Source: a bacterium (lineage in GTDB: Bacteria > Bacillota > Sulfobacillia > UBA995). From it: DNA of 64,000 bases. The position numbers were made by a program, and so were the translations under genes. The notes beneath the pieces are model-generated. The model was not told where the DNA came from. It ran no database searches and saw nothing but the letters and a program-made list of their open reading frames with translations. Shown here piece by piece: positions 28,937 to 63,955 of the stretch. The DNA lies in NCBI GenBank assembly GCA_031082145.1, contig JAVHLP010000008.1:8818-72817 (forward strand), given 5' to 3'. Positions within the stretch are counted from its first letter, which is position 1. Every line of letters begins with the position of its first letter.

Positions 28937-29084
28937 GGGGTGCTCCCCGGCGCCGGCAGGACCGCCGGGCCGGGGCCGGACTCCCGTCCTGTGGTCACTG
29001 GGGGACCGCGATCACCCACCAGACCTTCGTGGGGCGGTCACGCTCATGGTTGCCCGGCGGGCGATGAAAGAGCCTGGAACGGCG

Positions 29085-29118
29085 GGCGGACCCGGCAACC
29101 TTGCCGGATCCGCCCTCG
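29085..29118 (-). terminator. stem-loop immediately 3' of rnpB
   Basis: GGGCGGAUCCGGCAA-GG-UUGCCGGGUCCGCCC (15-bp stem, one mismatch) directly follows the P1 3' strand. Confidence 0.35.
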
Positions 29119-29120
29119 TG

Positions 29121-29489
29121 GCGACCAGATCGATAAGCCGAGTTCAGTCGAGGATGGTCATCTCTCTGGGACCAGGGTTGCCCCATGGCCTCATGCGACC
29201 AACCCGAGGGGTCGGCGGGCCGCGTCATTCCCCTCCTATTTGGTCTTGCTCCGGGTGGGGTTTGCCTAGCCGGCCCGTCACCGGACCGCTGGTGAGCTCT
29301 TACCTCACCGTTGCACCCTTGCCCGTCAGGGACGGGCGGTACGTTTTCTGTGGCACTTTCCTTGGGGTCGCCCCCACTGGGTGTTACCCAGCACCCTGCC
29401 CTGCGGAGCTCGGACTTTCCTCGGGCACGGCCTCGCGGCGCTTGTGCCCGCGACCACCTGATCTGGTCAGCCGATCGGCTTATACTCGC
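29121..29489 (-). ncRNA. rnpB: RNase P RNA (bacterial type A)
   Basis: The minus strand carries the universally conserved GAGGAAAGUCCGAGCUCC...CAGGGUGCUGGGUAACACCCAGUGGGGGCGACCCCAAGGAAAGUGCCACAGAAAACGUACCGCC P4 region, ...GGUAAGAGCUCACCAG..., ...ACCCGGAGCAAGACCAAAUAGG... and the 3' ...GAACUCGGCUUAUCGAUCUGGUCGCC, which pairs with the 5' GCCGAUCGGCUGACCAG as helix P1. This is nearly colinear with E. coli M1 RNA. The 5' end sits ~7 nt downstream of a -10 box. Confidence 0.9.
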
Positions 29490-29495
29490 CCCTTC

Positions 29496-29524
29496 ATGTT
29501 AGCATGGCTAAAGCGACCCGTCAA
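29496..29524 (-). promoter_or_regulatory. sigma-A-type promoter of rnpB
   Basis: On the minus strand, TTGACG (-35), a 17-nt spacer and TAACAT (-10) lie 7 nt upstream of the predicted RNA 5' end. Confidence 0.45.
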
Positions 29525-29630
29525 CAAATCGCCTTGGTCGCAACTCGGCCGGCCGTGGGGAGGCATCAACTTGACCCCGGCGGGTCCTTTGGGTCAGCTC
29601 GGCCCGGGGAACGTTGCCCCGGGGAAGAGC

Positions 29631-31031
29631 TCAGAAGATGATCGTGAAGACGGCTCCCTTTCCGGTGTTGCCGGCCTCAATCTTGCCGTTGTGCTGCTCA
29701 ATGATGGACTCCACAATGGAAAGCCCGATGCCGTGCTTGCCCCCGCTGCCTTTGTAGAAGCGATCAAAAATGCGGGGAAGGTCTTCGCCTGCTATGCCGT
29801 CACCGTCGTCGATCACCGAGACGGTTGTCCTGCCGTTCTCCTGACGGCAGGCAAGGGTGATGGTGCTTCTTGCGTACCTGAGCGCGTTTGAGATGAGGTT
29901 TGAGAAGGCACGGGACATGCGCTTTTCATCGCATAGCAGGTTTACCGGCTCGCCATCAAACTCGAAGATGAACTGGAGATTCCGCTCCGCCGCCAGGCTT
30001 CTCTGACGCTCGGCGCAGTTTGAGAGGAGTTCGCGCAGGTCATGCTGTTCAGTTCTGCCGCTCGGGGTTATGCTATCAATCCGCGAGAGGTAAAGCAAGT
30101 CCTCAACCATCTCGCTGAGCCGATCGGTTTCGCCCATTATCACCCGGCTCGATCGCCTGGGGTCCAGAATCCCGTGTGCGATGCCTTCGGCGTTGCACCT
30201 GATAGTCTGCAGCGGAGTCCTGAGCTCATGGGACACGTTTTGGAAGAAGGTCTTCTGCTCCTTGTCGTAGGCATCAAGCTGAGCGGCCGCTTTGTTCATG
30301 CTCTCGGCAAGCTCTGCGAGTTCCCTATCCCTGTAGTTCAAGGCGCTGGTCGCGAAGTCTCCCTTCCCTATTCTCACTGCAAGCCGTTTGAGCTCTCTGA
30401 CCGGTGCCGCGATCCTGTCCGACAGAAACATGGCGATGCCGAAGGCCAGAACCCCGGCCACACCCATGACCACCGAGAGCACGGTGTTTAGGCGATCGGA
30501 GAAGGAGGTGATGGCCGTCATGTCGATGTAGTATACCAGGTAGGACAGCCCCCCCGGCATCGGCACCGAGACCAGGTAATACTCCCTGTCGGAGACCTTG
30601 AGCCGCAGGATCTCGGCCTTCCGCAGATCCACCCCCTCGGCCTCCAACTGCGCCACGACGGCGCTTATCTCATCATGATTGGGGATGAAGTTCAGGCCGG
30701 GATCGGGGAACAGGAGTTCGTAGTCTTCGGACACGATTACCGCCTCGGCCCTGCCGATCGGGCCCCTCGGCAGCCTTCTCATGTCGGGGATGAACTCCGG
30801 CCTGTGGTCCGGCGGAGGCTGGCTCACGGGTGGGGGGCCTTGGACGTTCCCCATGTCACTTAGCACTTGGAGGGCCTCTCTCAGCTGTTCGTTCACGCTG
30901 GCCTTGATGTACTCGCCGACCAGCAGGTTGAAGACCGCCAGGACAACCAGGAAGATGGCGGCGATCAGAGACAGCACCATGACCAGAATCCGGGTGCGGA
31001 TGCTGATCTTAAGCGTGCGGGTCTTACTCAC
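29631..31031 (-). CDS. sensor histidine kinase (HAMP-HisKA-HATPase)
   Basis: Two TM helices, a HisKA H-box (NVSHELRTPLQTI) and N/G1/G2 ATPase motifs (SNALRYA, DDGDGIAGEDLPRIFDRFYKG, GIGLSIV). GC is lower than the surroundings. Confidence 0.8.
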   Translation of the reverse strand: MSKTRTLKISIRTRILVMVLSLIAAIFLVVLAVFNLLVGEYIKASVNEQLREALQVLSDMGNVQGPPPVSQPPPDHRPEFIPDMRRLPRGPIGRAEAVIVSEDYELLFPDPGLNFIPNHDEISAVVAQLEAEGVDLRKAEILRLKVSDREYYLVSVPMPGGLSYLVYYIDMTAITSFSDRLNTVLSVVMGVAGVLAFGIAMFLSDRIAAPVRELKRLAVRIGKGDFATSALNYRDRELAELAESMNKAAAQLDAYDKEQKTFFQNVSHELRTPLQTIRCNAEGIAHGILDPRRSSRVIMGETDRLSEMVEDLLYLSRIDSITPSGRTEQHDLRELLSNCAERQRSLAAERNLQFIFEFDGEPVNLLCDEKRMSRAFSNLISNALRYARSTITLACRQENGRTTVSVIDDGDGIAGEDLPRIFDRFYKGSGGKHGIGLSIVESIIEQHNGKIEAGNTGKGAVFTIIF

Positions 31032-31725
31032 CGGCCGGGCGTTCCTTAAGGCGAAAACCAAAGCCCCACACCGTCTCAATGAGAGTCCTGCTGCCCGATA
31101 GTTTCTTCCGCAGCCGCCGCACGGTGTCGTCGGCGGCTCGCGTTTCCACTTCGCTATTGTACCCCCATATCTTGTTCAACAGTTCCTCCCGGGATATGGC
31201 TCTGTCTTTGTGCTGGATGAGATAACACAAGAGATTGTACTCATTCGGCGTGAGCTCCAAGGGAGCGCCCTCAAGCACTGCGGTCTTGTTGTTAAGGTCC
31301 ACTCGAACACCGGCATGCTCAAGAACAAGCGGCAGCGGAGTCTTCTTCTCCTTCGTATCGAATTCCATCCGGCGGAATATCGCCTTCACTCTCATGACAA
31401 GCGATATGGCCGAGAATGGCTTGGTGAAGTAGTCGTCGCTGCCGAGGTTTATCCCGGTGGCATATTCCAGCTCACCCTCACGAGCCGTGAGCATGATGAT
31501 GGGAACGGTGCTGATCTTGCGCAATTCCGAGCATACGGCAAACCCACTGGACCCCGGCATCATCACGTCGAGGATCACCAGGTCGCTTGGCCTCTCCCGG
31601 AAGGCGGCGAGCAACTGGTCGCCGTCCTCGAAGGCGCTGACGCAATACCCCTCACTCTCCAAGAAAGACTTGACCACCTCGCGTATGTTCTGCTCGTCGT
31701 CGGCAATGTAGATGCGCTCGTTCAT
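31024..31725 (-). CDS. OmpR-family response regulator
   Basis: The receiver domain has the phospho-acceptor context (DLVILDVMMPG). The winged-helix region reads TPNEYNLLCYL...WGFGFRL. The start is at MNERIYIADDE. Confidence 0.85.
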   Translation of the reverse strand: MNERIYIADDEQNIREVVKSFLESEGYCVSAFEDGDQLLAAFRERPSDLVILDVMMPGSSGFAVCSELRKISTVPIIMLTAREGELEYATGINLGSDDYFTKPFSAISLVMRVKAIFRRMEFDTKEKKTPLPLVLEHAGVRVDLNNKTAVLEGAPLELTPNEYNLLCYLIQHKDRAISREELLNKIWGYNSEVETRAADDTVRRLRKKLSGSRTLIETVWGFGFRLKERPAGE

Positions 31726-31798
31726 GCCCTTGTCCACCTCCCCTTCTATCGTTGCCCAGCCGGCAGCCAGCTTCACCCCGGGGAAGGCAGGGCTCTCC

Positions 31799-33535
31799 TC
31801 AGGGACCACCGGCTGCCACGTGTCTCCGGCCCTTGAAAGACGCGGCCAGGATGACGCCGGCAGTCATGACAAGGCCCCATGCCAGCAAGGGAGCCGCCGA
31901 GTTGCCTTCGCCGGTCGCCGTGAGGCCGGGCTCTTCTCCCGGCCGGATGCCGGGTGCGGGCTCACCGCGGCCACCCGGGAGAGGTCCCGGCGGCAGCACG
32001 GCCCCGGGTTGGCGGCCGGCACCCTCCCCGGGAGGCCTCACCGCGTCGCCACGGGGAAGCTGCGGCGCGAGGGGCCCACCCCCACCCAGGTTCGGCACTC
32101 TACCTCCGGCCATTCCCATGCCGCTACCGGCGTTGGTGGAGGGCAATTCCCCGCTGAGCTGCCGGTGAATTGACGTGGACATTGCGGCAGCGAGTTCAAG
32201 CAGCCCGGGGACGTTTCCGCCCAGGCCCGGCACTCCGCCTATCTGGAAGCCCTGGCGGCCCGGTTGGGCGGCCACCCCTGGCAGCTGCGGCAACACTCCT
32301 GCTTGATCTGCGTCACCCATGGCGCCGCCGGCAACGGTGCCGGAGATGCTCATCACAAACTGCTCGTAGGTGTAGAAGGCGGTGGGATCGGTCCTGACGT
32401 ATTCCGAGATGAGTTCAAAGAGCCGCGCGGTTTCCGCTTCCAGATAGCCCCCGCTCAGGTACTCGGTGGCGACCCATTCGAGGTAGGCATGATAGGTCTC
32501 AAGACGTCGCTCATCCTTTAGGAGTTCGGCGATGAGGGGTCTATCGGCCAGTGGCCCCTGGGTCGGCTCGTCGATGTACACGCTCTGAGCATCGCCGTTG
32601 AAGCCGAAACCACCGAAGGCCATGTTCAGGTCCCATGGCAGGATGGTGAACACCCCGCTTCGCTCGTACAAGTAGTAGTTGTGGGCAAAGTTGCCCTGGT
32701 AGCTGTCGAAGTTGACGAGGGCCGTGCTGACGGCAATGTACCTCAGGGCCGCGTCGACGTCCAGGTACCTCTCGATGTCGCCACCGTTGTTCAGCGCGTC
32801 CAGCATCCTCGTGAGCTTGGACCAGTCGGCCTTCTTCAGCGTACTCTTCACCTCGAGGCTCGAATAGCCTGCCGGATCGGTGCCGTTGTACTTCAAGGTA
32901 TTCCCCACCGACTTGTACAGATCTCCGGTAAGGTCCCCGAAGTTCCGCTCGAGATAGGGCTCAAGTATGCTCTCAACCGCGAGGTAGAGCCCGAAGTACT
33001 CGCCGTTCACATATACGGCGGCAGGGGCGAAGGCCGGCACGGCCACCCCCATCTCCTCGAATATCTGGTAGGAGAGATACTCCCGCATGTAGGAGGGATC
33101 GGAGAAGCCGTTGTTCAGGTTCAACTGGGTCAACCCCGCCAGGGTCTGGTTCTCTATTAGGCCGTTGAAGTTGAGCTTGAAGCTGTAGCGGTTGCCGCCG
33201 CTGCGGGCGACCGTCATGAGGCTGGAATTGCCCTTGGGCCGGATCTTCACGAACGGGTAGACGTCGCCGTTGACGGTAACCGTCGCGATCCGGAACTCCT
33301 CCTGGCGAGCATTTTCTATCATGTACGCCCAATCGGCTTCGCTCATCTCAATGCGGATGTCCATGACCTCGTCGCGCTGGAAATACCGGGTCACGTACTC
33401 GTCACCGTAAACGGTGACGACACCGGTGCCGAACATCCTGAAGCCGGCGATGAAGAGGGTCACCAGCCCGGCCATCACCAGGGACAGGGCCGCGATCTTC
33501 ACGTCGACCGTTCGCTCAGGATGCATATTCACCAC
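31799..33535 (-). CDS. CotH-family protein (spore-coat-protein-H-like atypical kinase), membrane-anchored
   Basis: An N-terminal TM anchor precedes the CotH domain (NGDVYPFVKIRPKGNSS...NLNNGFSDPSYMREYLSYQIFEEMG...NFDSYQGNFAHNYYLYE) and a Gly/Pro-rich tail with a C-terminal TM. GC is lower. Confidence 0.75.
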   Translation of the reverse strand: MVNMHPERTVDVKIAALSLVMAGLVTLFIAGFRMFGTGVVTVYGDEYVTRYFQRDEVMDIRIEMSEADWAYMIENARQEEFRIATVTVNGDVYPFVKIRPKGNSSLMTVARSGGNRYSFKLNFNGLIENQTLAGLTQLNLNNGFSDPSYMREYLSYQIFEEMGVAVPAFAPAAVYVNGEYFGLYLAVESILEPYLERNFGDLTGDLYKSVGNTLKYNGTDPAGYSSLEVKSTLKKADWSKLTRMLDALNNGGDIERYLDVDAALRYIAVSTALVNFDSYQGNFAHNYYLYERSGVFTILPWDLNMAFGGFGFNGDAQSVYIDEPTQGPLADRPLIAELLKDERRLETYHAYLEWVATEYLSGGYLEAETARLFELISEYVRTDPTAFYTYEQFVMSISGTVAGGAMGDADQAGVLPQLPGVAAQPGRQGFQIGGVPGLGGNVPGLLELAAAMSTSIHRQLSGELPSTNAGSGMGMAGGRVPNLGGGGPLAPQLPRGDAVRPPGEGAGRQPGAVLPPGPLPGGRGEPAPGIRPGEEPGLTATGEGNSAAPLLAWGLVMTAGVILAASFKGRRHVAAGGP

Positions 33536-34196
33536 TGAAGCTCATCAGGGCCGCGTTGGTGACCCCCGGGATTATCGACAGCTCGTTCACAAACCTGGTC
33601 TCACCGGTTTTCAGGCGTATCTCGAAGACGAGTTCAATGCCTCTCGCCGCCGAGACCGTCTTGGACTTGACGCGGTACCGGGAGACGTTCCTCCTCATCA
33701 GATCCACGGCATCGCCTTCCGCCCCCTCGTCCGCGCAGTTGATGATCACGATGTAGGGAGTCTCGATCACGTTCTGGCTGACAAAGGCGATGAGGATAAT
33801 GCCGATGATCACCGAACCCAGCACGGCCAGCGGGATCAGCCCCGCGCCCAGGACGATTCCCGCGCCGATGGACCAGAAGAGGAACACCAGGTCCATGGGG
33901 TCTCTTATGGCGGTGCGGAAGCGGATGATGGACAACGCGCCCACCATCCCCAGAGAGAGAACGACGTTGGAGGTCACGGCCAGGATGATGAGCGTCGTGA
34001 GCATGGTCAGAGCCACCAGCGAGACGTTGAAGGGACGCGAGTACATGACGCCCGAGAAAGTCTTCTTGTAGATCAGATAGACAAACATGCCCACGAGGAA
34101 CGCGGCCACCAGGGCCAGCACGGCGTCGGTGAAGGAGAACCCGGTCACCTTCTCCAGGAAGCTGGACTTGAAGATGTCGTTGAACGTGAACCGCAT
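33516..34196 (-). CDS. DUF4956-like membrane protein
   Basis: A polytopic N-terminal half is followed by a soluble C-terminal domain, the architecture that typically accompanies CotH and VTC proteins. The call is from memory. Confidence 0.55.
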   Translation of the reverse strand: MRFTFNDIFKSSFLEKVTGFSFTDAVLALVAAFLVGMFVYLIYKKTFSGVMYSRPFNVSLVALTMLTTLIILAVTSNVVLSLGMVGALSIIRFRTAIRDPMDLVFLFWSIGAGIVLGAGLIPLAVLGSVIIGIILIAFVSQNVIETPYIVIINCADEGAEGDAVDLMRRNVSRYRVKSKTVSAARGIELVFEIRLKTGETRFVNELSIIPGVTNAALMSFSGEYAS

Positions 34197-34217
34197 TGGA
34201 TCGGCTCCTCTCGCAGA

Positions 34218-34904
34218 CTACGTGTAGACTCGGCAGGCGGCGTACTTCGAGACTGCCACCGGCGAGCATTTTCCCAGCTGGATGATGTCCTGGACCACTT
34301 CCGGCAGGAACCCGTCGAACTTCACCTCCAGGATGCAGATGCCGGGTTCCAGGGCCGGTGCGGTTGGGAGATCGGCATCAAACAGGTCGGTGGCGTTTAT
34401 CGACGCCCTGACGTCACTGTCCAGGGTCACCCGCACGTTGCCGGGGCGGTGGAGGTAGGCCTCCCGCAAGTAATCCACAACCGTTCTGGGGAGCCAGCGT
34501 TCCGTCCTGACCTTCAGGTAGAACTCCCTCAATAGCACCTGATCCGAGTCTCTCAGGAAGGCGACCTCACCCCTGCAGATGTCCTGCACCTCTTCCCTGG
34601 TCACTCTGGCTCCGAGCTTCGCGGCCTTGCCGTAGTGCTTGACCTTCTTCTCCAGCCGGATGAAGCTATGGTCGTGATTGTACAAGCGGATGCGGAATTT
34701 CTCCTTCATGGGCGCCCCGTCGATCTTGTCCCGGAGTGCACGGTCCTCGGGGGTGTCGAAATACAGGCTCCGGACATGATAGCTGCCTTCCGGCCGGGCA
34801 TGGGGGTCCAGGCGCAGGACGCAGGACAGCCTGCTCCTGAGAACTGCCGCGTCGGCCACGGTGATGATGTGTTTGAACTCGTTCCGATACGCCAGGTTGG
34901 TCAC
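34218..34904 (-). CDS. VTC-domain (CYTH-like, polyphosphate-polymerase-type) protein
   Basis: The product has the EFKHII, RSLYFDT and LEVKFDG elements of the CYTH/VTC triphosphate-tunnel fold and is 228 aa. Confidence 0.6.
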   Translation of the reverse strand: MTNLAYRNEFKHIITVADAAVLRSRLSCVLRLDPHARPEGSYHVRSLYFDTPEDRALRDKIDGAPMKEKFRIRLYNHDHSFIRLEKKVKHYGKAAKLGARVTREEVQDICRGEVAFLRDSDQVLLREFYLKVRTERWLPRTVVDYLREAYLHRPGNVRVTLDSDVRASINATDLFDADLPTAPALEPGICILEVKFDGFLPEVVQDIIQLGKCSPVAVSKYAACRVYT

Positions 34905-35117
34905 TCGGCGCCACCTCGCTTCCTCGCCCTGGCGGCCTTCTCACCTTGATTCTAACCGGGAACGGGGGTGGGAAGCTCCGAAAAGCAGCGGCGGTAATGC
35001 CGCGGAACTGCCGCAACCCCGCCCCCGCCCGGGAGGACCCTGGCGAAGCAGGATGGGAGAGCCGATCCGGCGAAAGGGAGGCCGCGTACGGTGGCCGGGA
35101 AAGGCCCACAATAGGCA

Positions 35118-36911
35118 ATGGGCCCGCGGCCGTCTAAACGAACCCAGGGGTCAGGAGGCAGGCCGGTGGAAGATGTAGGTTGCGGCAGCGCGATCAACTT
35201 CATCCAGAGCATCATTGACAAGGACCGGGCCGAGGGCTGGAATGACGGCCGGGTGCATACCCGGTTCCCTCCTGAACCAAATGGGTACCTGCATATCGGT
35301 CATGCCAAGGCCGTCATCCTCAATTACGGGCTGGCCGTAAGGAACAACGGTCTGTTCAACCTGCGCTTTGACGATACCAACCCTGCAACCGAGAACGAGG
35401 AGTTCGTGGAGTCGATCATCCGCGATGTCAAGTGGCTGGGAGCGGACTGGGGCGATCGGTTGTTCTTCGCCTCCGACTACTTCGATCAGTTCTATGACTT
35501 TGCCGTTCAGCTGATTGAGAAAGGGAAAGCCTACGTCTGTGACCTGAGCCAGGACGAGATGCGCGAGCACCGGGGGACTCTCACCCGGCCGGGGCGGGAG
35601 AGCCCTCACCGCGATCGCCCGATTGAGGAGAACCTCGACCTGTTCAAACGGATGCGAGCCGGTGAGTTCGCAGCCGGCTCACGAACCTTGAGGGCGAAGA
35701 TCGACATGGCCTCGGCCAACATGAACCTGCGGGACCCCGTGCTCTACCGCATCCTGCACGCGCGTCACCACCGGACCGGGGACCGCTGGTGCATCTACCC
35801 GATGTATGACTACGCCCATCCCCTGGGCGATGCCCTGGAGAGCATCACCCATTCCATCTGTACCCTGGAATACTGCGACCACCGGCCGCTCTATGACTGG
35901 GTGCTCGACAACGTGGATTATCAGCTGGTGCCGGGCGTTCGAGGACGGCCCAAGCAAATCGAGTTCGCCCGGCTGAACACCAACTACACCGTCATGAGCA
36001 AACGCAAGCTCCGGCGGCTGGTTGAGGAGGGCCACGTGAGCGGGTGGGACGACCCCCGCATGCCCACCATTGCCGGTATCCGCCGGCGAGGGTATACTCC
36101 CGAGGCCATCCGCTCCTTCTGCGATCAGATCGGGGTGGCCAAGAGCGATAGCGTGGTGGACCTGGCCTTCCTGGAGCACTGCGTCCGGGAGGACCTGAAC
36201 CGAAAGGCCCCGCGGGTGATGGCCGTCCTCCGGCCCCTGAAGCTGACCATCGTCAACTACCCCGAGGGCCAGACGGAGTGGTTGGAGGTCGAGAACAACC
36301 CGGAGGATCCCGCCGGCGGCAGCCGCCGGGTACCGCTGGCCCGGGAGTTGTACGTCGAGCAGGATGACTTCCGGGAGGATCCGCCTCCCAAATTCTTCCG
36401 CCTGGCGCCCGGCCGCGAGGTTCGCCTCAAGGGCGCGTACATCATCAAATGCGAGCGCGCCCTGAAGGATCCGTCCACCGGGGCGATCATCGAGTTGCAG
36501 TGTACCCATGACCCGGAGACCAGGAGCGGGGGGCCCGGCAGCGACCGAAAGGTCAAAGCCACCATCCACTGGGTGTCGGCGACGCACAGCCTTCCCGCCA
36601 CGGTCCGCCTCTATGACAAGCTGTTTCTGACCGCGGACGCCGAGGCGGGCCCGGAGGACCAGGACTTCACGGCCAACCTCAACCCGGAATCGATCGAGGT
36701 CCTCAACCAGTGCCGGGTGGAACCCGCGGTGGCCCACGCCACCGCCGGGAGCCGCTACCAGTTCCTACGGCAGGCCTACTTCCATGCCGATCCTGAGGAC
36801 TCCCGGGAAGGCCACCCCGTCTTCAACCGCATAGTCAGCCTGCGCGACGACTGGGCCCGGGCACAGAAGGCGCGGTCACCCGATGGACCCGGCGACGGGA
36901 CGGCAAGGTAG
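35118..36911 (+). CDS. glnS: glutaminyl-tRNA synthetase
   Basis: [35 protein letters not shown] is near-identical to the E. coli GlnRS block. KMSKS (VMSKRK) and the C-terminal anticodon-binding domain are present. Confidence 0.9.
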
Positions 36912-57035: not shown

Positions 57036-57073
57036 GAACGCCCCCTCCTTCAAGAGGGGGCGTTCTGTCTTCC
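57036..57073. terminator. bidirectional rho-independent terminator between convergent genes
   Basis: GAACGCCCCCTC-CTTCAA-GAGGGGGCGTTC is a perfect 12-bp stem, followed by TGTCTTCC on the plus strand and flanked by T-containing sequence on the minus strand. Confidence 0.55.
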
Positions 57074-57080
57074 TCCGAAC

Positions 57081-57542
57081 TCAGTGCAGCAGGGGCTCGA
57101 GATCCACCACGAACGCTCCCCGTGACTCCCAGTCTATCCTGACGTCCGGTCGCCCCAAGGGTATGTCCAGCGATCGGCCCTGCTCGGGATCGGTGATCCG
57201 CAACGAGAACTCGCTGCCGAAGAGCCCCACGTCGAGCACGGCGTTGGTGTCGACGTGTAGCTTGAGCCCCCGGTAGTTGTCGCCAATCTCGCTGCTGACG
57301 GCAGGCAACGCTTCCAGCGGCCCCAACCCCAGCCCGGCAGCAGTTGACTCGTGGCCATAGGCCGCCTCCCGCCCACAGGCGGCCACCCGCTTGCCCAGGA
57401 TGACCATTCCGTTTATCAGGTAGCGATCCAACCCCCGGCTGCCCGCCACCGGCTCGCCCGACCGGGTCAGGTGGAGTTCGAACCGGGTAGTGTCGTCCAC
57501 CGACAACGAGGTCTCGGTATAGAGCTCCACGCCCAGCTTCAC
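57081..57542 (-). CDS. hypothetical protein downstream of the MNIO gene
   Basis: The GTG at 57542 follows GGAAGGGGGTGAGG. The product is 154 aa. I recognise no family. It could be an MNIO partner protein. Confidence 0.35.
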   Translation of the reverse strand: MKLGVELYTETSLSVDDTTRFELHLTRSGEPVAGSRGLDRYLINGMVILGKRVAACGREAAYGHESTAAGLGLGPLEALPAVSSEIGDNYRGLKLHVDTNAVLDVGLFGSEFSLRITDPEQGRSLDIPLGRPDVRIDWESRGAFVVDLEPLLH

Positions 57543-57621
57543 CTGCCTCACCCCCTTCCGCTGGCCGCGTTCCAGGCTATGCGGGACATCTGTCAGGGGT
57601 GAGCGGGCGGGCCGATGGGAC

Positions 57622-58422
57622 TCAGTCCAGCAGCTCGCGCAGTCGCCCCATCTGACGCCGGAGTGCCCCGGGATCACTGCGGATCTGATCCTGCTCTCTC
57701 ATGCCGCCGTACTCCAGGGTCAACACCCGCGGCCGGCACCGATGCAGCGCCCACCGCAGCAGTTCGTAGCCTTCGCCGCCGATCTCCTCGTGCCAGTCAT
57801 CCAGCACGCCGTCGACGACCGCCGGCCCGGAGATATGGATCTCCTCCACGCGATCCAGCGGCAGCCAGGAGAGGTAGTCCCCCACGGTTTCGCCCCGGTA
57901 CCACGATGTGACCTGCGCATGAGCCAGGTCCAAGAGGAACTGGCAGCCGGCGGCGTCCACCACCCGGCTGATGAACCGGGGGTCACCGGTGAAGGCGGGG
58001 AATGCGGGTTGCCCCAGGGCGGGCACGCCCACCGGCTCGTTCTCCAGGTGCACGGGCAGGAGGGTGGTCGCCTCCAGGATTCGCACGTCGGCAACGATCC
58101 GCTCTAGGACGATGTCGGCGCCGACGGCTTCGAGATCCATCGCCGGGTAGCCGAGATGTACGGAGAGATAGCGGGAACCGGCCAGCTTAATAGCTTGCAG
58201 CAGGCTATGCGGGTCGAACTCCCCGGCGAAACGGTCATCTCCGGGGCTCGAGGTCTGGACTAGCCCATGAAGCAGTATTCTCCCCGCTTGGTAGAGCCCT
58301 CGAAGAGCGTCCTGGTGGGCGAGCAAGGTCCGGGGGTACATTTTGACCAGGTCAACCAGGTCCGGTTCTCTCTCCAGCAGGGCCAAGAGCGCCGGCGAGC
58401 AGTTTGCGGCAAGCAGGGTCAC
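57622..58422 (-). CDS. DUF692 / MNIO (MbnB/TglH-like multinuclear non-heme iron oxidative enzyme)
   Basis: The product is colinear with MbnB blocks: LENEPVGVPA matches LYLENYPSI, FLLDLAHAQVTSWYRG matches VLFDASNAICAQNNTG, EIHISG matches HFHVAGYG, and TLEYGGMREQD matches TYERDFD. Its start overlaps the stop of the permease fragment (ATGA). Confidence 0.7.
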   Translation of the reverse strand: MTLLAANCSPALLALLEREPDLVDLVKMYPRTLLAHQDALRGLYQAGRILLHGLVQTSSPGDDRFAGEFDPHSLLQAIKLAGSRYLSVHLGYPAMDLEAVGADIVLERIVADVRILEATTLLPVHLENEPVGVPALGQPAFPAFTGDPRFISRVVDAAGCQFLLDLAHAQVTSWYRGETVGDYLSWLPLDRVEEIHISGPAVVDGVLDDWHEEIGGEGYELLRWALHRCRPRVLTLEYGGMREQDQIRSDPGALRRQMGRLRELLD

Positions 58423-58709
58423 GGCATCAACCTCCCGGGACTATATGACGGAATCGGGGGCACAACGGTCTCGACGGTCAGGGAGGCCGGTACTCGACCC
58501 GGCGACTCATACCGCAAGGCCGCCACCGGCTCCATGCGCGCGGCCCGCCGGGCCGGCCACATCCCGAAGAACAGCCCCACCGCCAGTGAGAAGCCGAAGG
58601 CTAGTCCTATCCCCCACCACGATGTGGCCACGGGCAGGTGGCGGATGAGCCGGGCGGCCAGCCTGGCTCCCCCGATCCCCACGGCGATCCCGATCAGCCC
58701 GCCGGCCAC
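58419..58709 (-). pseudogene. displaced 3' fragment of the FtsX-type ABC permease gene
   Basis: The 96-aa ORF is about 95% identical to the C-terminus of the intact permease (62082..63260) but continues ...ALRYESPGRV... into the MNIO start. Confidence 0.7.
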
Positions 58710-58727
58710 GGAGAGAACGGCGGCCTC
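58516..58727. repeat. direct repeat, left copy (~210 bp), flanking the inserted island
   Basis: It matches 62094-62306 at about 96% identity, with about 7 mismatches and one 1-nt indel by eye. Confidence 0.8.
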
Positions 58728-59039
58728 CAGTCTTTGCTGCCGTTACTCCTTCGGCCGTGAGCACGATGGGTCCGACGGCATTACGTACCACCAACCCCGG
58801 GAGAGATGACGATGTCAGCATCTGTCTCCCCTGCGGCGTACGGCGCACGCTGGACGCTGGGCAGGAGGACTACTAGTGCTGACTTCGAGACCAGAACCAT
58901 CTCCCTCCTCTCGCGTGGGAAGGGCTTGGCCCAACCCCTCGGCCTAACGGCACCTGAGGAGCGGGGTATGGCGCGACGCCGCGTCATACCCCTCGCTCTC
59001 CATGCGCTTGTTCGGCACACCGAGATCGCGCCCGGCACC

Positions 59040-59390
59040 TCACTTCTGCTTCTCCGCCGCCCCTTCCATCCGCAGTTTCTGCAAGAGTGGCGCAGCTTCC
59101 ATAATGCTCTTCAGTCCTGCCTGCGGGACACAAGCGAGTCGCGAGAGCATGTCAAGGTCGTCACGATGGGCAAGTTTCCCATCACATGCACAACGGGAGT
59201 TGCATGGGCACTGGCTGCCGTTCCGTGAATCACAAGGGCAGTGACCCTCACAGCATTTCGATGCAGCTGATATGTCGAAGGTGGGTAGCTTCGCCGCTGC
59301 GAGGGCCGGCACCACTGCGAGTGATAGCTGCTCAGCAATGCTCTTCGCCAGCGCGCTCAACTCCTCCGTCCTGAGGACCTCTGACATCAT
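59040..59390 (-). CDS. Cys-rich 117-aa protein (candidate RiPP precursor or metal-binding peptide)
   Basis: An AAAGGAG RBS lies 6 nt before the ATGATG at 59390. The core CCEGHCPCDSRNGSQCPCNSRCACDG has 8 Cys in 26 residues, with predicted helical leader-like N- and C-terminal flanks. The listed ORF start at 59501 is less likely. Confidence 0.5.
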   Translation of the reverse strand: MMSEVLRTEELSALAKSIAEQLSLAVVPALAAAKLPTFDISAASKCCEGHCPCDSRNGSQCPCNSRCACDGKLAHRDDLDMLSRLACVPQAGLKSIMEAAPLLQKLRMEGAAEKQK

Positions 59391-59439
59391 CGCCAGCTCC
59401 TTTCGTTCGAAGGCTCCTCCCTTTCCCGTCACAGCCGCG

Positions 59440-60912
59440 TCACACCAAAGCATCACCTCCTCCCGTCTGGCTGGGGGCAAACAGAGTGCATAGCAGCTCA
59501 TCGGCCGTGATATTGCGGGTGAGGAAGCATCGTTGCAGTGCCTCGGAGCCTATCACAGCCTGCAAGCCGCCCAGCGCCGCTTTGGCGATGCAGTCGCCGC
59601 CGCAGTTCCACTTCACGAAACAGTCTCGACACCGCTCAATCCCTGTGACGTCGAGGCTCCTGAGCCGGCGCACCTTGTTGTTGTCAAGGACGAACGCATT
59701 CAACGATGGGTCGTAGCACCCATAGATGAACATGTCCCCACGAGGATCTGATAGGTCAAGAACTTCGTAACAAGAGGACACGAATCCGTCCGTTGAGACG
59801 CAGAAGTTCAAGTCGGGTCCGTAGGCGCTACAGAAGCTCGATCGGAGACCATCCAACCGGCAACTTGACAGGCCGATCTGCATTCCGTTCTGGCGTCCAA
59901 ACGCACTGGCTTCTCGGAAATGGATCAAGAACTTCGACATGAGATCGGAGTCTGCCAGACCAGCGTCACGAGCACGCCCGGTCTCGCACACCGGCTCGAA
60001 GTTGATGTACCGGCATTTCGTCTTCTCGCGGACAAACACGGCAAAGTCCTTCATGCTCTGTACGCCGATGGAAGTGACCGTGCTGCGGATGCAGTAGTCC
60101 ACATGGTGCTCCTCCAGCAGCCTCAGTGAGCGCATGAGCGTCTCAAAGCTGCTCGCGCCGCTCCGCAATGGCCGCTGGACGTCCATGATCTCTTGTAGGC
60201 CATCCATTGAGATACCGACACGGAAGCCATGCTCTGCGAGGAATGATGCTTTGGCCGTGCTCAGAATGCCATTAGTTACCAACGAGAACCGCGGGGTTAG
60301 CCCCTCTCGATCGCAGAGGTCTTCTGCCAAGAGCACCGATTGGCGGAGAAGGGGCCAATTGGCCGTGGGCTCTCCCTGGCCGTGAAACTCGACCTCAAAC
60401 GTGTCCTTCGATCTGGCAACCGAATTGTCGAAGACAGTGCGCAGGGCCGCTTCTGCCGTCTTCCAAGACATTGCGCGGGGGCTGTCGCCACCGTGAATGT
60501 AGCAGTAGATGCAGGCCATTTGGCAAGCCGATGTAAGCGAGAGCGTAAGCTGTGTGGGGAGAAAATCATCTTCTTGATGCCCATTGCACATGCGAGGGTG
60601 CAGTCTTGCCTTCGTATCGAGGAGACGGATCAAGTCCTCATCGGGCTTGATCTCACATTCCGAGAGGCACGTCGACATTGAGGCGGTCGGATTGAGCAAG
60701 ATGCTGGCGAGACCCGCGCCGGTAATGAGGACCAGCAAACCCTGAAGGGGAGAATACAGCAGATACCCGTCGAGATAAGGTATGGCAAACAGGTCGTCTC
60801 CTACCACGAACCAGGAGTCGCTACCGTGGTACCGAACGCACTCACTCAGCCGTGCTTGGAGTGCAGCCTCGGTTGAGAGTTGTTGCAGCGACAACGGAGC
60901 GCGCTGTGCCAT
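59440..60912 (-). CDS. radical SAM enzyme with C-terminal SPASM domain
   Basis: CQMACIYC is a CxxxCxxC motif about 130 aa from the N-terminus. The C-terminal Cys cluster reads CRLDGLRSSFC...CYE...CRDCFVKWNCGGDC. Length is 490 aa. Confidence 0.8.
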   Translation of the reverse strand: MAQRAPLSLQQLSTEAALQARLSECVRYHGSDSWFVVGDDLFAIPYLDGYLLYSPLQGLLVLITGAGLASILLNPTASMSTCLSECEIKPDEDLIRLLDTKARLHPRMCNGHQEDDFLPTQLTLSLTSACQMACIYCYIHGGDSPRAMSWKTAEAALRTVFDNSVARSKDTFEVEFHGQGEPTANWPLLRQSVLLAEDLCDREGLTPRFSLVTNGILSTAKASFLAEHGFRVGISMDGLQEIMDVQRPLRSGASSFETLMRSLRLLEEHHVDYCIRSTVTSIGVQSMKDFAVFVREKTKCRYINFEPVCETGRARDAGLADSDLMSKFLIHFREASAFGRQNGMQIGLSSCRLDGLRSSFCSAYGPDLNFCVSTDGFVSSCYEVLDLSDPRGDMFIYGCYDPSLNAFVLDNNKVRRLRSLDVTGIERCRDCFVKWNCGGDCIAKAALGGLQAVIGSEALQRCFLTRNITADELLCTLFAPSQTGGGDALV

Positions 60913-61448
60913 TGAGTGTCACTTGCCTTTCTGTCCTGTACCTGCCGGAGGAAACGCTCTGAGCGGCTTGAAAACCACCGAACCCTGGCTCCGCGACGTC
61001 GCAGCCCATGCCTGCTGCCAATATCTGGGTTCACCGTGTACGCGGTGACTCCTCTTTGTAGCCCGCTGGTTGGGTCGACACCGTCAACGCTTCTGCGCGC
61101 TCCCGAGTCCCGCGAAGGACATGGGCCAACAAGGAGGTCGCTTCCTCCAGGTTCATGGGCGGGAGGGGAGACTGGAACCTACCTGGGCATGCCGCCGCGA
61201 CTCCTGCGGTGTTGGCTGTCTGAGTGAACCGAGTCCCCACCGAGAGTGCCCGCCAGTATGTCGGTTCCGAGGGCACGATAGTGGCAGCTGCCCGTGAGCC
61301 CCGTGACATCGAGCGTTCACTGCGGCGGGCCGACGGTTGGCCGCGCTAACCTGCGTCAACCGTAGTGCATCGGACTGGGCACCGACGGCCGGTGTCAGGT
61401 GGAGCGGATGTCAGCCTGTCGTCTTCCCGGCAAGGGACGCTGGTGAGG

Positions 61449-62060
61449 TTACCACGAGTAGCAGCGGAGCTCGACGTTCACCTCATCGAGGCTGAAGTGG
61501 TCAGGGTCCCACGGCCCGCCAAGCCACGCCACCATCTCGTCGTGCTCCTCGCGGGCGGGATCGGCGATGATCTCCAGTAGGCGGTAATAACCCCCGATGC
61601 CGCCGCAGTCCTCGGGCGGGCAGGCTCGCCGCCCGGCCAGGCAGGTCGGGCAGGTCACACTCTCCTGGGCCGGCAGGATCCGCTCCACCTTGACCGAGTG
61701 CCTCCAGCCGTCCCCGTAGTCATACTCGTACAGGAACGTGCTCCCCTCGAAAGGGACCAATCGCTGCAGCACCGCCCTTGTGGCCTCGCGCATGTCGAAC
61801 CAGGGATCGTCCTCGAGTTCCTCACCGTACTCCTCGCCGGCAATCCTGAAACGGTACAGATGGCAGTTCAGCCACCCCATGGCGATCTGAATGGCCATGT
61901 GCAGCCCGGCCAGGGTAATGTTACCCGGCACCTGGAGCCGCCGCCAGATCGGGGGCTTGCTGCCGCCGAGAGTGACTTTGAGCTGGTAGACACGCCTGGG
62001 TGAGGCCCGCCGCGTCCGCTGCGGACCCGCTTGCCGCCCGATCTCCTGTTGCCGTGACAA
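61449..62060 (-). CDS. pRiA4b ORF-3-like family protein
   Basis: VYQLKVTLGGSKPPIWRRLQVPGNITLAGLHMAIQIAMGWLNCHLYRF matches the PF07929-type N-terminal signature, a family often seen on plasmids and transposon-like elements. Confidence 0.6.
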   Translation of the reverse strand: MSRQQEIGRQAGPQRTRRASPRRVYQLKVTLGGSKPPIWRRLQVPGNITLAGLHMAIQIAMGWLNCHLYRFRIAGEEYGEELEDDPWFDMREATRAVLQRLVPFEGSTFLYEYDYGDGWRHSVKVERILPAQESVTCPTCLAGRRACPPEDCGGIGGYYRLLEIIADPAREEHDEMVAWLGGPWDPDHFSLDEVNVELRCYSW

Positions 62061-62081
62061 ATCTATCCCATCCTCTGCCGC

Positions 62082-63260
62082 TTAGTCGTGTCGAAGGGCC
62101 GCCACCGGCTCCATGCGCGCGGCCCGCCGGGCCGGCCACACACCGAAGAACAGCCCCACCGCCAGTGAGAAGCCGAAGGCCAGTCCTATCCCCCACCACG
62201 ATGTGGCGACGGGCAGGTGGCGGATGAGCCGGGCGGCCAGCCTGGCTCCCCCGATCCCCACAGCAATCCCGATCAGGCCGCCGACCACGGAGAGAACGGC
62301 GGCCTCGACCAGGAACTGTAACAGCACGTCCCGGTCGCGAGCGCCGACGGCCTTGCGGATCCCGATCTCGTGGGTGCGCTCGGTGACGGTTGCCAGCATG
62401 ATATTCATGATCCCGATCCCGCCGACGATCAGCGAGATGCTGGCTATCCCGGTCAGGACCCCGGTCAGGATGGTGAGGACGGAGTCGATGGCGTCGATCA
62501 TGGCCTGCTGGTGCAGGACCCCGACCCCCGCGCCGCTGTGGCGTTCCTTCAGGAGGCTCTCGATCTCGTCCGCCAGCGCGGCGACCTTGGCCGTGCTCTC
62601 CGCTCTCACGGCGATGTGGCCTAGCTCGGTCCGCAGGCCCAGCTCATCGGCAGCTTCCAGGCTGATATAACTACGCCGGTCGAAGTTGTACATGAGAACC
62701 GACGGCTGCGGGGCAAGCACGCCGCGGACCGTGAAGGCGGTATCGGCCAGCAGTACCTCCTGGCCGACGGCGCTCCCACCGGGGAACAGGGAGACCGACA
62801 GTCTGGCTCCCAGGACGATCCCCCGGCGGTCACCGGCTGCCAGGAAGCAGCCGTCGGCCAGGGACAGGCGGAAGGCCGCCTCCGCAGCCGGTTCGGTCGC
62901 CACCACGGTGCCGGTCACCCGCAAATCCCCGGCCGCCAGTTCACCTGAGGAATCCGCCACCGAGCAGGCTGCCAGGACACCCTCCAGCCGGGAGATGGCA
63001 GCGGTATCGGCCGGGGTGAGCCGGGCCGGGGGCCGGGAGCCGCGGGGCGCCGGCCCCATGCCCCCGCCGGTCACCATCAGGTGGTCGGGGGACATATCGC
63101 CCAACCGCCCGGTGGCCTCCTCCCTCGCCCCCTGGCCAATGGACACCAATGACACCACGGCGGCCACGCCGATGATGACGCCCAGCATGGTGAGACCCGA
63201 GCGGAGCTTGTTGGCCCCCATTCCATCCAGGGCCAGCCTGGCATAAGCCAGCAAGGTCAT
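62082..63260 (-). CDS. ABC transporter permease, FtsX/MacB-like
   Basis: It has an N-terminal TM segment, a periplasmic domain and three C-terminal TM helices with the ...IGIRKAVGA motif. Its start overlaps the ATPase stop by 4 nt. Confidence 0.85.
62094..62306. repeat. direct repeat, right copy (~210 bp), forming the 3' end of the intact permease gene
   Basis: It matches 58516-58727. The junction with the island falls exactly after the ...AALR codon, and island sequence supplies the last residues HD and the stop. Confidence 0.8.
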
Positions 63261-63955
63261 AGGCCCGCCCTCCTCTCGTCCCGGCTCACGCGGCCATCCC
63301 GGACCTCTATAATCCGGGGGGCGGCGGCGGCGATCTCGGGGTTGTGGGTAACAAGGATCAGCGTCCGGCCCTGCCGGTTGAGTGAGCCGAACAGGTCCAG
63401 GATCTCCCGGCCGGTACGGGTGTCCAGGTTGCCCGTGGGTTCGTCGGCCAGTATGAGACCGGGGTCGTTGACCAGCGCCCGGGCTATGGCCACCCGCTGC
63501 TGCTCGCCCCCGGACAGCTCACCGGGGCGGTGGGTCAGCCGATCCCCCAAGCCGACCTGCTCCAGGACACCCCCGGCCCGCTGCCGGGCCGCCCGCGGCG
63601 CTACCCCGGCATAGGTCAGGGGAAGAACCACGTTGTCCAGCGCGGCCAGGCGGCTCAGCAGGTTGAAGGTCTGGAAGACGAACCCCAGCCGCCGGTTCCT
63701 CAGCCGGGCCAGACCATCACCGGTCAGAGCAGTCACGTCTTGGCCGTCAAAGCGGTACCGGCCCGATGATGGCCGGTCCAAACACCCCAGGATATGCATC
63801 AAAGTTGACTTACCCGAACCCGACGGCCCGATGATGGAGACGAACTCGCCGGCATCAACGGCGAGGTTGACCCCCCGCAGGGCGTCAACGCTACCCCGTC
63901 CCTGGCCGTATACCTTGGTGAGCTCCTCCACTTCCAAGAGAGGCATCAGCCGCAT
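63257..63955 (-). CDS. ABC transporter ATP-binding protein (MacB/LolD-like)
   Basis: Walker A GPSGSGKST, the signature LSGGEQQRVAIARAL, Walker B ILADEPTGNLD and the H-loop are all present. Confidence 0.9.
   Translation of the reverse strand: MRLMPLLEVEELTKVYGQGRGSVDALRGVNLAVDAGEFVSIIGPSGSGKSTLMHILGCLDRPSSGRYRFDGQDVTALTGDGLARLRNRRLGFVFQTFNLLSRLAALDNVVLPLTYAGVAPRAARQRAGGVLEQVGLGDRLTHRPGELSGGEQQRVAIARALVNDPGLILADEPTGNLDTRTGREILDLFGSLNRQGRTLILVTHNPEIAAAAPRIIEVRDGRVSRDERRAGL

What the first reader, a model, noticed from the sequence alone, without database searches (positions are those of the whole stretch)
57081..58422. MbnB-like DUF692 (MNIO) enzyme embedded in an ABC-exporter operon with no recognisable precursor or partner gene
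The 266-aa protein is colinear with MbnB/TglH-type multinuclear non-heme iron oxidases, which act on Cys-containing RiPP precursors. Before the island insertion it was translationally coupled to the ATPase-permease pair, and it is followed by an unrecognised 154-aa protein with its own RBS. Known MNIO systems need a partner (MbnC/TglI-like) and a precursor peptide, and neither is recognisable here. Either the 154-aa protein is a novel partner, or the substrate is encoded elsewhere (possibly beyond 64 kb, upstream of the ATPase), or the island-borne Cys-rich peptide now sits in the same transcriptional neighbourhood.
Basis: partly seen in the sequence, partly recalled or inferred. Interest (0 to 1): 0.6.

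Follow-up and report, generated by a model that had tools for sequence, protein, structure and literature searches.

The report
Solo MNIO-type iron enzyme, no partner
The 266-residue protein is a genuine relative of the iron enzymes that tailor peptide natural products, but it belongs to a little-studied branch whose genes stand alone, with no helper protein or substrate peptide next to them, so its target is unknown.

Summary
Window 57622-58422 (-) encodes an intact 266-aa DUF692/MNIO protein: PF05114 49 bits (cut-off 25), profile match to TglH 7e-22, AF2 pLDDT 91.6 with TglH and MbnB as best folds.

It belongs to a distinct clade, about 314 clusters at 50% identity, found in Deinococcota, Chloroflexota, Bacillota and others. 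Members are single-domain and keep all nine metal ligands. The site-3 Asn of canonical MNIOs is an invariant His here.

Across 84 clade loci no neighbour is conserved. There is no DUF2063/MbnC/TglI-like partner and no conserved small ORF, and many downstream genes are convergent.

The downstream ORF is 153 aa, not 154, and is not a partner. Relatives keep it next to the same NIF3-like and Gate-like genes with no MNIO or ABC genes nearby, and its model is all-beta.

The MNIO lies at the end of an accessory MacB-type ABC operon. That operon is split by a 3.4-kb low-GC insertion carrying a radical-SAM plus 8-Cys peptide cassette. This cassette normally occurs without an MNIO (about 10 distinct loci). 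It was nevertheless also acquired directly beside a clade MNIO in an Anaerolineae MAG, which I cannot explain.

Verdict: a real member of an uncharacterised, partner-less MNIO branch. The substrate is unknown and interest is moderate.

The parts
57622..58422 (-). 266-aa solo MNIO/DUF692 enzyme (GTG start, own GGGAGG RBS). Predicted metal ligands: H52 H89 E127 D165 H168 H196 D209 H211 E237.
   Evidence: PF05114 49.3 bits. All 17 aligned clade members hit PF05114. Profile against PDB: TglH 7e-22, HS_1138 1e-13, MbnB 1e-8. AF2 pLDDT 91.6. Foldseek: TglH TM 0.75, MbnB 0.71. Ligands 92-100% conserved in 139 clade representatives.
57081..57542 (-). 153-aa protein of unknown family with its own RBS. 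It is a resident backbone gene, co-directional with the MNIO but not a dedicated partner.
   Evidence: No Pfam or NCBIfam hit. Only two homologue clusters exist, both without an adjacent MNIO and syntenic with NIF3-like and Gate-like genes. AF2 model is all-beta, pLDDT 65, with no significant PDB match.
57036..57065 (.). GC-rich hairpin between the convergent 153-aa gene and the Gate-like membrane protein gene. Likely a bidirectional terminator that ends the operon.
   Evidence: Read directly from the sequence. The terminator-like site was flagged at 57044-57060.
58419..58727 (-). 3' remnant of a MacB/FtsX permease gene, about the last 72 codons plus a 30-codon read-through tail. Its stop overlaps the MNIO start (GTGA).
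   Evidence: FtsX C-terminal hit at 26.4 bits. Direct repeat 58513-58727 against 62092-62306 at 95% identity.
58728..62091 (-). Inserted segment of about 3.4 kb. It carries a PRiA4_ORF3 protein (62060-61449), a radical-SAM/SPASM maturase (60912-59440) and an 8-Cys precursor peptide (59501/59387-59040).
   Evidence: Pfam and NCBIfam hits. Cassette GC is 0.575-0.589 against 0.66-0.69 in the flanks. It is bounded by the 215-nt repeat. The cassette family always has the peptide gene adjacent.
62082..63260 (-). Intact MacB-type permease (MacB_PCD + FtsX), 392 aa. Its last about 215 nt form the second copy of the repeat.
   Evidence: PF12704 107 bits and PF02687 75 bits.
63257..63955 (-). ABC ATPase (MacB/LolD-like), 232 aa. 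It overlaps the permease start by 4 nt.
   Evidence: PF00005 112 bits. NCBIfam MacB N-terminal region 269 bits.

Best explanation
The 266-aa gene encodes a functional, partner-independent member of the MNIO (DUF692) superfamily.

It belongs to a distinct 'solo' clade spread through Deinococcota, Chloroflexota, Bacillota, Armatimonadota and neighbouring phyla. Clade members are single TIM-barrel domains of about 270 aa. They carry a complete nine-residue trinuclear metal site, in which the site-3 Asn of characterised MNIOs is replaced by an invariant His (D-x-x-H).

Their genes have no conserved neighbours, so neither a leader-binding partner nor a substrate peptide is encoded alongside.

Most likely mechanism (inferred, not shown): like its nearest characterised relatives TglH and ApyH, the enzyme uses a multi-iron centre and O2 to oxidise a residue of a peptide or protein. 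That substrate would be encoded elsewhere in the genome and recognised directly rather than through an RRE-type partner.

In this genome the gene is host-like in composition. It forms the distal end of an accessory MacB-type ABC operon, a lineage-specific arrangement. The operon was later split by integration of a foreign radical-SAM/Cys-rich-peptide cassette through homology in the permease 3' end. The 153-aa gene downstream is an unrelated backbone gene.
For: Superfamily membership:
- Sequence.
- Fold.

Clade size and single-domain lengths: 314 clusters at E<=1e-30, lengths 232-322 aa.

Metal site:
- Ligands are invariant or near-invariant in 139 representatives.
- H168 aligns with the Asn of TglH, MbnB and HS_1138.
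- That Asn (HvfB N175) is a predicted site-3 ligand required for activity (paper 10.64898/2026.07.17.739211).

No conserved neighbour in 84 loci:
- The largest non-self neighbour cluster is FabG, in 14 loci.
- Contexts include fabK-fabD-fabG/lgt, pilin-like/GNAT/M29, HlyIII/M14, CysG-like/R-M, IMPDH-like and GNAT.
- The downstream gene is convergent in 26 of 70 scored loci.
- None of 19 sampled co-directional downstream neighbours of clade loci has a DUF2063, MbnC or RRE signature.

The 153-aa gene occurs without an MNIO in relatives.

Host-like composition: MNIO GC3 is 0.81, against 0.64-0.69 for the cassette.

Repeat structure fits a single-crossover integration.
Against: - No substrate was identified, so 'peptide or protein substrate' rests only on analogy with characterised MNIOs.
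- All characterised MNIOs except MovX (and possibly ChrH) need a partner (Antoine et al. 2025, PMC12452194).
- The D-x-x-H pattern and the housekeeping-type contexts fit equally well with a non-RiPP role, acting on a small molecule or nucleic acid.
- The second co-location with the radical-SAM cassette (L051) hints that the adjacency here may not be accidental.
- DNA upstream of the ATPase, beyond 64 kb, could not be inspected.
Confidence: 0.55

Rival explanations
1. Hybrid pathway: the MNIO acts together with the adjacent radical-SAM enzyme on the island-borne 8-Cys peptide, and the ABC transporter exports the product. The adjacency would then be functional, not accidental.
For: - In L051 (Anaerolineae MAG) a clade MNIO is followed directly by a homologous rSAM (38% identity over 440 aa). 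Two homologous Cys-rich peptide genes come next.
- In both genomes the cassette has foreign, low GC: 0.56-0.58 against 0.63-0.69. Two independent acquisitions therefore ended up beside this rare enzyme.
- The rSAM family is very rare, with 22 clusters at E<=1e-20 in 5.8 billion. Chance adjacency is therefore improbable.
- Most known MNIO chemistry targets Cys (PMC12257519).
- MNIO plus rSAM combinations exist in the apy and pbs clusters.
Against: - 15 fetched cassette loci (about 10 distinct) all have the peptide adjacent but no MNIO within the available flanks. One of them lies on a contig that also carries plasmid replication and mobilisation genes, in a Methylomicrobium MAG.
- 82 of 84 MNIO loci lack the cassette.
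- The window MNIO and the L051 MNIO are only 32% identical and fall in different sub-clades. Siblings of each lack the cassette.
- In the window a permease remnant separates the cassette from the MNIO.
Confidence: 0.15
2. Not a peptide-modifying enzyme: the clade is a housekeeping metalloenzyme of the xylose-isomerase/Endo IV TIM-barrel superfamily. It would act on a small molecule, lipid or nucleic acid, perhaps hydrolytically, using an Endo IV-like H/H/E-D/H/E-H/D/H trinuclear site.
For: - Genomic contexts are housekeeping and unrelated to RiPPs.
- The site-3 residue is His, as in endonuclease IV (my own knowledge of the E. coli Nfo ligands), not the MNIO Asn.
- 7 of 17 members also hit PF01261, best E 1.6e-7.
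- Endo IV structures give TM 0.56-0.65 at 20-22% identity.
Against: - By sequence, only MNIOs are significant in the PDB: TglH 7e-22 against Endo IV E 1.3-1.7.
- PF05114 is hit by all members, up to 5e-31.
- The best NCBIfam models are ApyH, BufB and HvfB.
- No characterised PF05114 member has a non-peptide substrate.
Confidence: 0.22
3. Canonical MNIO RiPP cluster whose precursor, and perhaps partner, lie upstream of the ATPase beyond the window edge.
For: Only 45 nt of sequence remain upstream of the ATPase start at 63955. The ABC exporter and the overlap with the MNIO start suggest an export-linked function.
Against: - In known systems the order precursor-MNIO-partner is tight (PMC12452194).
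- None of 84 homologous loci shows such genes within +/-5 kb.
- The own contig could not be retrieved, and the genome is not among the GTDB representatives.
Confidence: 0.06
4. The 153-aa downstream protein is a new type of MNIO partner.
For: It is co-directional, 80 nt downstream, ahead of a shared terminator, and has no known family.
Against: - Its homologues occur without an MNIO in conserved synteny with NIF3-like and Gate-like genes.
- No other clade MNIO locus has a homologue of it.
- The predicted fold is all-beta, unlike the helical DUF2063/RRE partners (PMC12452194).
Confidence: 0.02

Closest known systems
TglH (Pseudomonas syringae 3-thiaglutamate pathway; PDB 8HI7/8HCI)
   Same: It is the best solved-structure relative by sequence (E 7e-22 over residues 16-264) and by fold (TM 0.75). 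It has the same TIM barrel, and eight of nine metal ligands align identically.
   Different: TglH works as a TglHI heterodimer on a C-terminal Cys added to TglA, and its genes are clustered. Here there is no TglI-like gene, no precursor, about 20% identity, and the site-3 Asn is His.
ApyH (aminopyruvatide MNIO, Burkholderia thailandensis; NCBIfam NF050151)
   Same: It is the best-scoring NCBIfam model for all 17 clade members (up to 6.6e-30; 67 bits for the window protein).
   Different: The score is far below the equivalog cut-off (67 against 400). ApyH needs ApyI, and its gene overlaps apyI and apyD in a dedicated BGC. None of that is present here.
MbnB / HvfB / BufB (Cys-to-oxazolone/thioamide or thiooxazole MNIOs)
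   Same: Same Pfam family, fold (TM about 0.7) and ligands for iron sites 1 and 2.
   Different: These enzymes have obligatory MbnC or DUF2063 partners and an upstream precursor gene (PMC12452194). Their site-3 ligand is Asn (HvfB N175), whereas here it is His168.
MovX (Vibrio methanobactin-like cluster)
   Same: It is the only clearly reported partner-independent MNIO (PMC12452194).
   Different: MovX carries an extra winged-helix domain that may replace the partner, and it sits in a BGC. The clade here is single-domain (232-322 aa) and unclustered.
Endonuclease IV / AP_endonuc_2 TIM barrels (PF01261)
   Same: Same superfamily fold. The order and type of all nine metal ligands are identical, including D-x-x-H (Endo IV ligands are from my own knowledge).
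   Different: There is no significant sequence match for the window protein (Pfam none at E<=0.01; PDB profile E 1.3). No evidence of DNA-binding loops was sought.

Membership tests
MNIO / DUF692 superfamily (PF05114 MbnB_TglH_ChrH) | Significant match to the family HMM above the curated threshold | tested here: met
   49.3 bits against a gathering score of 25, E 5.3e-13. All 17 aligned clade members match, best 5.2e-31.
MNIO / DUF692 superfamily (PF05114 MbnB_TglH_ChrH) | TIM-barrel fold closest to solved MNIOs | tested here: met
   AF2 pLDDT 91.6 and pTM 0.91. The top Foldseek hits are TglH (TM 0.75), MbnB (0.71) and HS_1138.
MNIO / DUF692 superfamily (PF05114 MbnB_TglH_ChrH) | Ligands of iron sites 1 and 2 (His, His, Glu; Asp, His, Glu) | tested here: met
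   H52, H89, E127, D165, H196 and E237 align with the TglH and MbnB residues. They are 97-100% conserved in 139 clade representatives.
MNIO / DUF692 superfamily (PF05114 MbnB_TglH_ChrH) | Site-3 ligands Asn/Asp/His (HvfB N175, D242, H244) | tested here: not met
   The Asp and His are present (D209, H211). The Asn position is an invariant His (H168; 137 of 139). This is a clade-specific variant; whether it matters functionally is unknown.
Canonical MNIO RiPP system | Adjacent partner protein (DUF2063/PME-type 1 or 2, MbnC, TglI, Anthrone_oxy) | tested here: not met
   None is present in the window. There is no conserved neighbour in 84 loci. 26 of 70 downstream genes are convergent. None of 19 sampled downstream proteins from clade loci has such a domain. 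Very divergent PME-type 2 proteins could escape HMMs, but none recurs.
Canonical MNIO RiPP system | Precursor peptide gene next to the MNIO (usually directly upstream) | tested here: not met
   Upstream here is a permease remnant. No conserved small ORF of >=40 aa appears across the loci. Isolated small ORFs (L004 76 aa, L107 82 aa, L024 74 aa) are not conserved.
Canonical MNIO RiPP system | Iron- and O2-dependent oxidation of a peptide residue | not testable with these tools
   This needs biochemistry.
ApyH equivalog (NF050151) | Score above the equivalog cut-off | tested here: not met
   67.1 bits against a cut-off of 400.
Endonuclease IV / PF01261 | Significant sequence match to the family | tested here: not met
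   The window protein has no PF01261 hit at E<=0.01. The clade profile against Endo IV in the PDB gives E 1.3-1.7. 7 of 17 clade members do reach 1.6e-7 or weaker.
rSAM / 8-Cys peptide cassette (as an accessory enzyme of it) | Regular co-occurrence with the cassette | tested here: not met
   0 of about 10 distinct cassette loci have an MNIO. 1 of 83 other MNIO loci has the cassette.

The most novel reading that the evidence does not exclude
The solo D-x-x-H MNIO clade is a partner-independent protein/peptide oxidase. Mobile radical-SAM/8-Cys-peptide cassettes recruit it in trans. Their repeated landing next to the MNIO gene in two phyla would then reflect selection for a hybrid rSAM + MNIO maturation route, here coupled to a MacB-type exporter. 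That would be a new logic for RiPP biosynthesis: a resident tailoring enzyme combined with a mobile minimal cassette.
Probability: 0.12. Interest if true: 0.7.

Novelty: new variant of a known kind. Interest (0 to 1): 0.4.

Why it matters
MNIOs are currently mined as markers of RiPP clusters, on the assumption of a precursor-MNIO-partner arrangement. A sizeable, phylogenetically broad clade breaks that assumption. It keeps the full metal site but has no partner and no linked substrate, and it carries a His in place of the site-3 Asn.

The clade could reveal how an MNIO recognises a substrate without an RRE-type partner. Alternatively, it could show that the family has non-RiPP functions. Isolate genomes that carry it (Calidithermus chliarophilus DSM 9957, Piscibacillus salipiscarius JCM 13188) make this testable.

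For this window specifically, the practical message is that the gene should not be annotated as part of a RiPP cluster, and that the 153-aa neighbour is unrelated.

Tried and rejected
- Retrieving the window's own contig to look upstream of the ATPase. The exact-protein look-up found nothing, and the genome is not among the GTDB species representatives.
- The 153-aa ORF as partner. Rejected on synteny and predicted fold.
- A conserved neighbour or precursor of the clade. All-vs-all clustering of ORFs >=40 aa within +/-5 kb of 84 loci found only lineage-specific synteny. Pfam on 19 downstream neighbours of clade loci found no partner-type domain.
- Conserved linkage of the MNIO to MacB-type ABC genes. 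Only L032 has a related ATPase and permease, 3.4 kb away on the other strand.
- Shared non-coding borders between the window island and other cassette loci. None found.
- Plasmid-borne relatives. There was one weak Streptomyces DUF692 hit, which was uninformative.
- Literature search for a description of partner-less clades in Chloroflexota or Deinococcota. The MNIO landscape paper mentions neither phylum in its main text. It leaves open which MNIOs work without partners.
Full report
**Anatomy**

Reading the minus strand from high to low coordinates, the region holds:

- an ABC ATPase (63955-63257);
- a MacB_PCD/FtsX permease (63260-62082);
- a PRiA4_ORF3 protein (62060-61449);
- a radical-SAM/SPASM maturase (60912-59440);
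- a Cys-rich 115-153-aa ORF (59501/59387-59040);
- a 96-codon ORF that is only the C-terminal piece of an FtsX permease (58709-58419);
- the 266-aa ORF of the finding (58422-57622);
- a 153-aa ORF (57542-57081);
- a GC-rich hairpin (about 57065-57036), facing a convergent membrane-protein gene.

The MNIO start GTG overlaps the stop of the permease remnant (GTGA) and has its own GGGAGG 8 nt upstream. The 153-aa ORF starts at a GTG behind GGAAGGGGGTGAGG. Both gene models coincide with the NCBI proteins of the source MAG (P0001 and P0034).

**Is it an MNIO?**

Yes.

- Pfam PF05114 scores 49.3 bits (cut-off 25), although only residues 147-238 align. The best NCBIfam model is ApyH, at 67 bits against an equivalog cut-off of 400.
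- A profile of 17 relatives matches TglH across almost the full length (E 7e-22). It also matches HS_1138 (1e-13) and MbnB (1e-8), whereas endonuclease IV is not significant (E 1.3-1.7).
- An AlphaFold model built with that alignment is confident (pLDDT 91.6, pTM 0.91). Its best structural matches are TglH (TM 0.75) and MbnB (0.71), ahead of sugar epimerases and Endo IV.
- Nine residues are invariant in the 17-sequence alignment: H52, H89, E127, D165, H168, H196, D209, H211 and E237. They are 92-100% conserved in 139 representatives.
- Eight of them align with the same residue in TglH and MbnB. H168 falls where TglH, MbnB and HS_1138 have Asn (D-x-x-N). In HvfB that Asn (N175) is a predicted ligand of the third iron site and is needed for activity (bioRxiv 10.64898/2026.07.17.739211).
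- D-x-x-H is the pattern I recall for endonuclease IV. The clade may therefore retain an ancestral third-site His.

**The clade**

- An exhaustive HMM search finds 314 clusters (50% identity) at E<=1e-30, against 4627 at E<=1e-3. The latter presumably represents the wider family.
- Listed members are 232-322 aa, so they are single-domain with no fused winged-helix or RRE.
- In GTDB representative genomes the clade occurs in Deinococcales, Meiothermus, Calidithermus, Truepera, many Anaerolineae and other Chloroflexota, Bacillota (including Limnochordia, Halobacteroidaceae and Bacillaceae), Armatimonadota, Rubrobacter, Sumerlaeota and a Planctomycetales MAG.
- The closest relatives of the window protein are only 36-44% identical.

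**Genomic context of the clade**

I clustered all ORFs >=40 aa within +/-5 kb of 84 loci (80 genome loci, three metagenome contigs and the window).

- Apart from the MNIO itself and its antisense shadows, the most widespread neighbour is FabG, in 14 loci. Everything else is lineage-specific synteny.
- An Anaerolineae group has fabK-fabD-fabG-MNIO-lgt.
- Deinococcales have pilin-like genes-MNIO-GNAT-M29 aminopeptidase.
- The window's nearest relatives sit between HlyIII and an M14 carboxypeptidase, after a CysG-like gene and before an R-M system, after a tRNA-binding protein, after a GNAT, or next to an IMPDH-like gene.
- In 26 of 70 scored loci the downstream gene is convergent.
- Pfam on 19 co-directional downstream neighbours of clade loci gave an ICMT-like protein, an ECF sigma factor, an RF-1 domain, HigB, an HD domain, an acyltransferase, DedA, a histidine kinase and DUF1801, or nothing. 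None gave DUF2063, MbnC or an RRE-type domain.
- For comparison, in the published MNIO landscape about 72% of downstream genes are DUF2063, and the order precursor-MNIO-partner is the rule. That paper leaves open which MNIOs can act alone (PMC12452194).

**The 153-aa protein**

- It has no Pfam or NCBIfam hit and only two homologue clusters in 5.8 billion (63-68% identity).
- In those genomes it lies, as here, convergent to a Gate-like membrane protein (80-84% identical to the window's) and a NIF3-like protein (76-80%). Upstream is ValRS, or FUR and rubrerythrin.
- No MNIO, permease or ATPase lies within 10 kb.
- It is therefore a backbone gene, and the ABC/MNIO block is accessory DNA inserted upstream of it.
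- Its model (pLDDT 65) is an all-beta sandwich with no significant PDB match, unlike the helical DUF2063/RRE partners.

**The island**

- The last 215 nt of the intact permease (62092-62306) recur at 58513-58727 with 95% identity. Sequence immediately upstream of the remnant copy is unrelated to the permease.
- This is what a single crossover would produce between the resident permease 3' end and a circular DNA carrying a near-identical permease 3' fragment plus PRiA4_ORF3, the rSAM gene and the peptide gene.
- The rSAM and peptide genes are compositionally foreign (GC 0.575-0.589, GC3 0.64-0.69). The MNIO, permease, ATPase and backbone genes have GC3 of 0.78-0.88.
- The remnant reads 30 codons past the point where the intact copy stops. 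Ancestral stop/start overlap with the MNIO is therefore plausible but unproven.

**The cassette and an unexplained coincidence**

- The rSAM belongs to a rare family, with 22 clusters at E<=1e-20.
- In 15 fetched loci (about 10 distinct) it is always followed, and sometimes also preceded, by a 94-137-aa peptide with eight invariant Cys in CxC-type pairs. One locus sits on a contig with plasmid replication and mobilisation genes in a Methylomicrobium MAG. No MNIO is detectable in any of these loci. The cassette is thus self-sufficient.
- Yet among the 83 other MNIO loci, one has the same cassette. In L051 (Anaerolineae MAG) the rSAM is 38% identical over 440 aa. It is followed by two tandem peptide genes, and the cassette sits immediately downstream of the MNIO.
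- There too the cassette is low-GC (0.56 against 0.63-0.67). Sibling loci have lgt or other genes at that position.
- Two independent acquisitions of a very rare cassette right beside a rare enzyme are hard to ascribe to chance. The reciprocal absence in most loci of both kinds argues against an obligatory partnership. I leave this as a minority hypothesis at about 0.15.

**Conclusion**

The gene is not part of a recognisable MNIO RiPP cluster, and its closest relatives never are.

The best reading is a partner-independent 'solo' MNIO with a variant third metal site and an unlinked substrate. Here it is carried at the end of an accessory ABC operon that was later split by a foreign RiPP cassette.

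Whether the substrate is a peptide or protein (by analogy with TglH and ApyH) or something else cannot be decided in silico. I put the non-peptide alternative at about 0.2.

Noticed in passing
window 59040-60912 (-); also L051:11051-13301, L100:10001-11813, L104:1396-3284, L106:2852-5131: A rare two-gene RiPP-like cassette: a radical-SAM/SPASM maturase (closest NCBIfam models PapB, nif11 and SCIFF-type, all far below cut-off) plus a 94-137-aa peptide with eight invariant Cys (CxC pairs) and a conserved C-terminal follower region. Only 22 rSAM clusters were found at E<=1e-20. One copy lies on a contig with Rep3, MobA and T4SS coupling-protein genes in a Methylomicrobium MAG. The peptide gene is often duplicated.
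   Followed up: partly
window 58513-58727 and 62092-62306: A 215-nt direct repeat (95% identity) of the permease 3' end brackets the 3.4-kb insertion. This fits a single-crossover (Campbell-type) integration of DNA that carried a near-identical permease fragment. No integrase or transposase is present, only a PRiA4_ORF3 protein.
   Followed up: partly
window 61449-62060 (-): PRiA4_ORF3 family protein (PF07929, 226 bits), first gene of the inserted segment. No homologue was seen next to the cassette in other loci.
   Followed up: no
window 57081-57542 (-); L007:10001-10462; L010:3155-3610: The 153-aa orphan protein has a stretch (about residues 40-80, ...NGMVILGKRVAACGREA.YG...AGLGLGPLEA.P) that is almost invariant among its three known homologues. 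AlphaFold nevertheless predicts this stretch with pLDDT <50. The gene is always convergent to a Gate-like membrane protein and a NIF3-like gene.
   Followed up: partly
L016/L017/L020/L021/L022/L025/L015 (about 140-240 nt downstream of the MNIO); L109:1308-2261; L004:7948-9530; L005:3966-4571; L107:2091-3338: GNAT acetyltransferase genes recur near clade MNIO genes in several unrelated lineages. Peptidase genes (M14, M29, M3) also turn up. This may be chance, since GNATs are abundant, or a weak functional hint.
   Followed up: no
L036, L039, L055, L057, L061, L069 (about 100-aa ORF ending about 10-330 nt upstream of the MNIO): A conserved small membrane protein of about 100 aa (2-3 predicted TM segments, no Pfam hit) lies directly upstream of the MNIO in six Chloroflexota loci. 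It is the only recurrent small upstream ORF seen, and it is restricted to one lineage.
   Followed up: partly
L024:637-861: In a Rubrobacter MAG a 74-aa ORF beginning MCGLCYGEVCIWC... overlaps the MNIO start. It is not conserved elsewhere and may be a spurious high-GC ORF.
   Followed up: no
window 29001-36000: GC drops to 0.60-0.63 against about 0.69 for the rest of the window, suggesting another horizontally acquired block.
   Followed up: no
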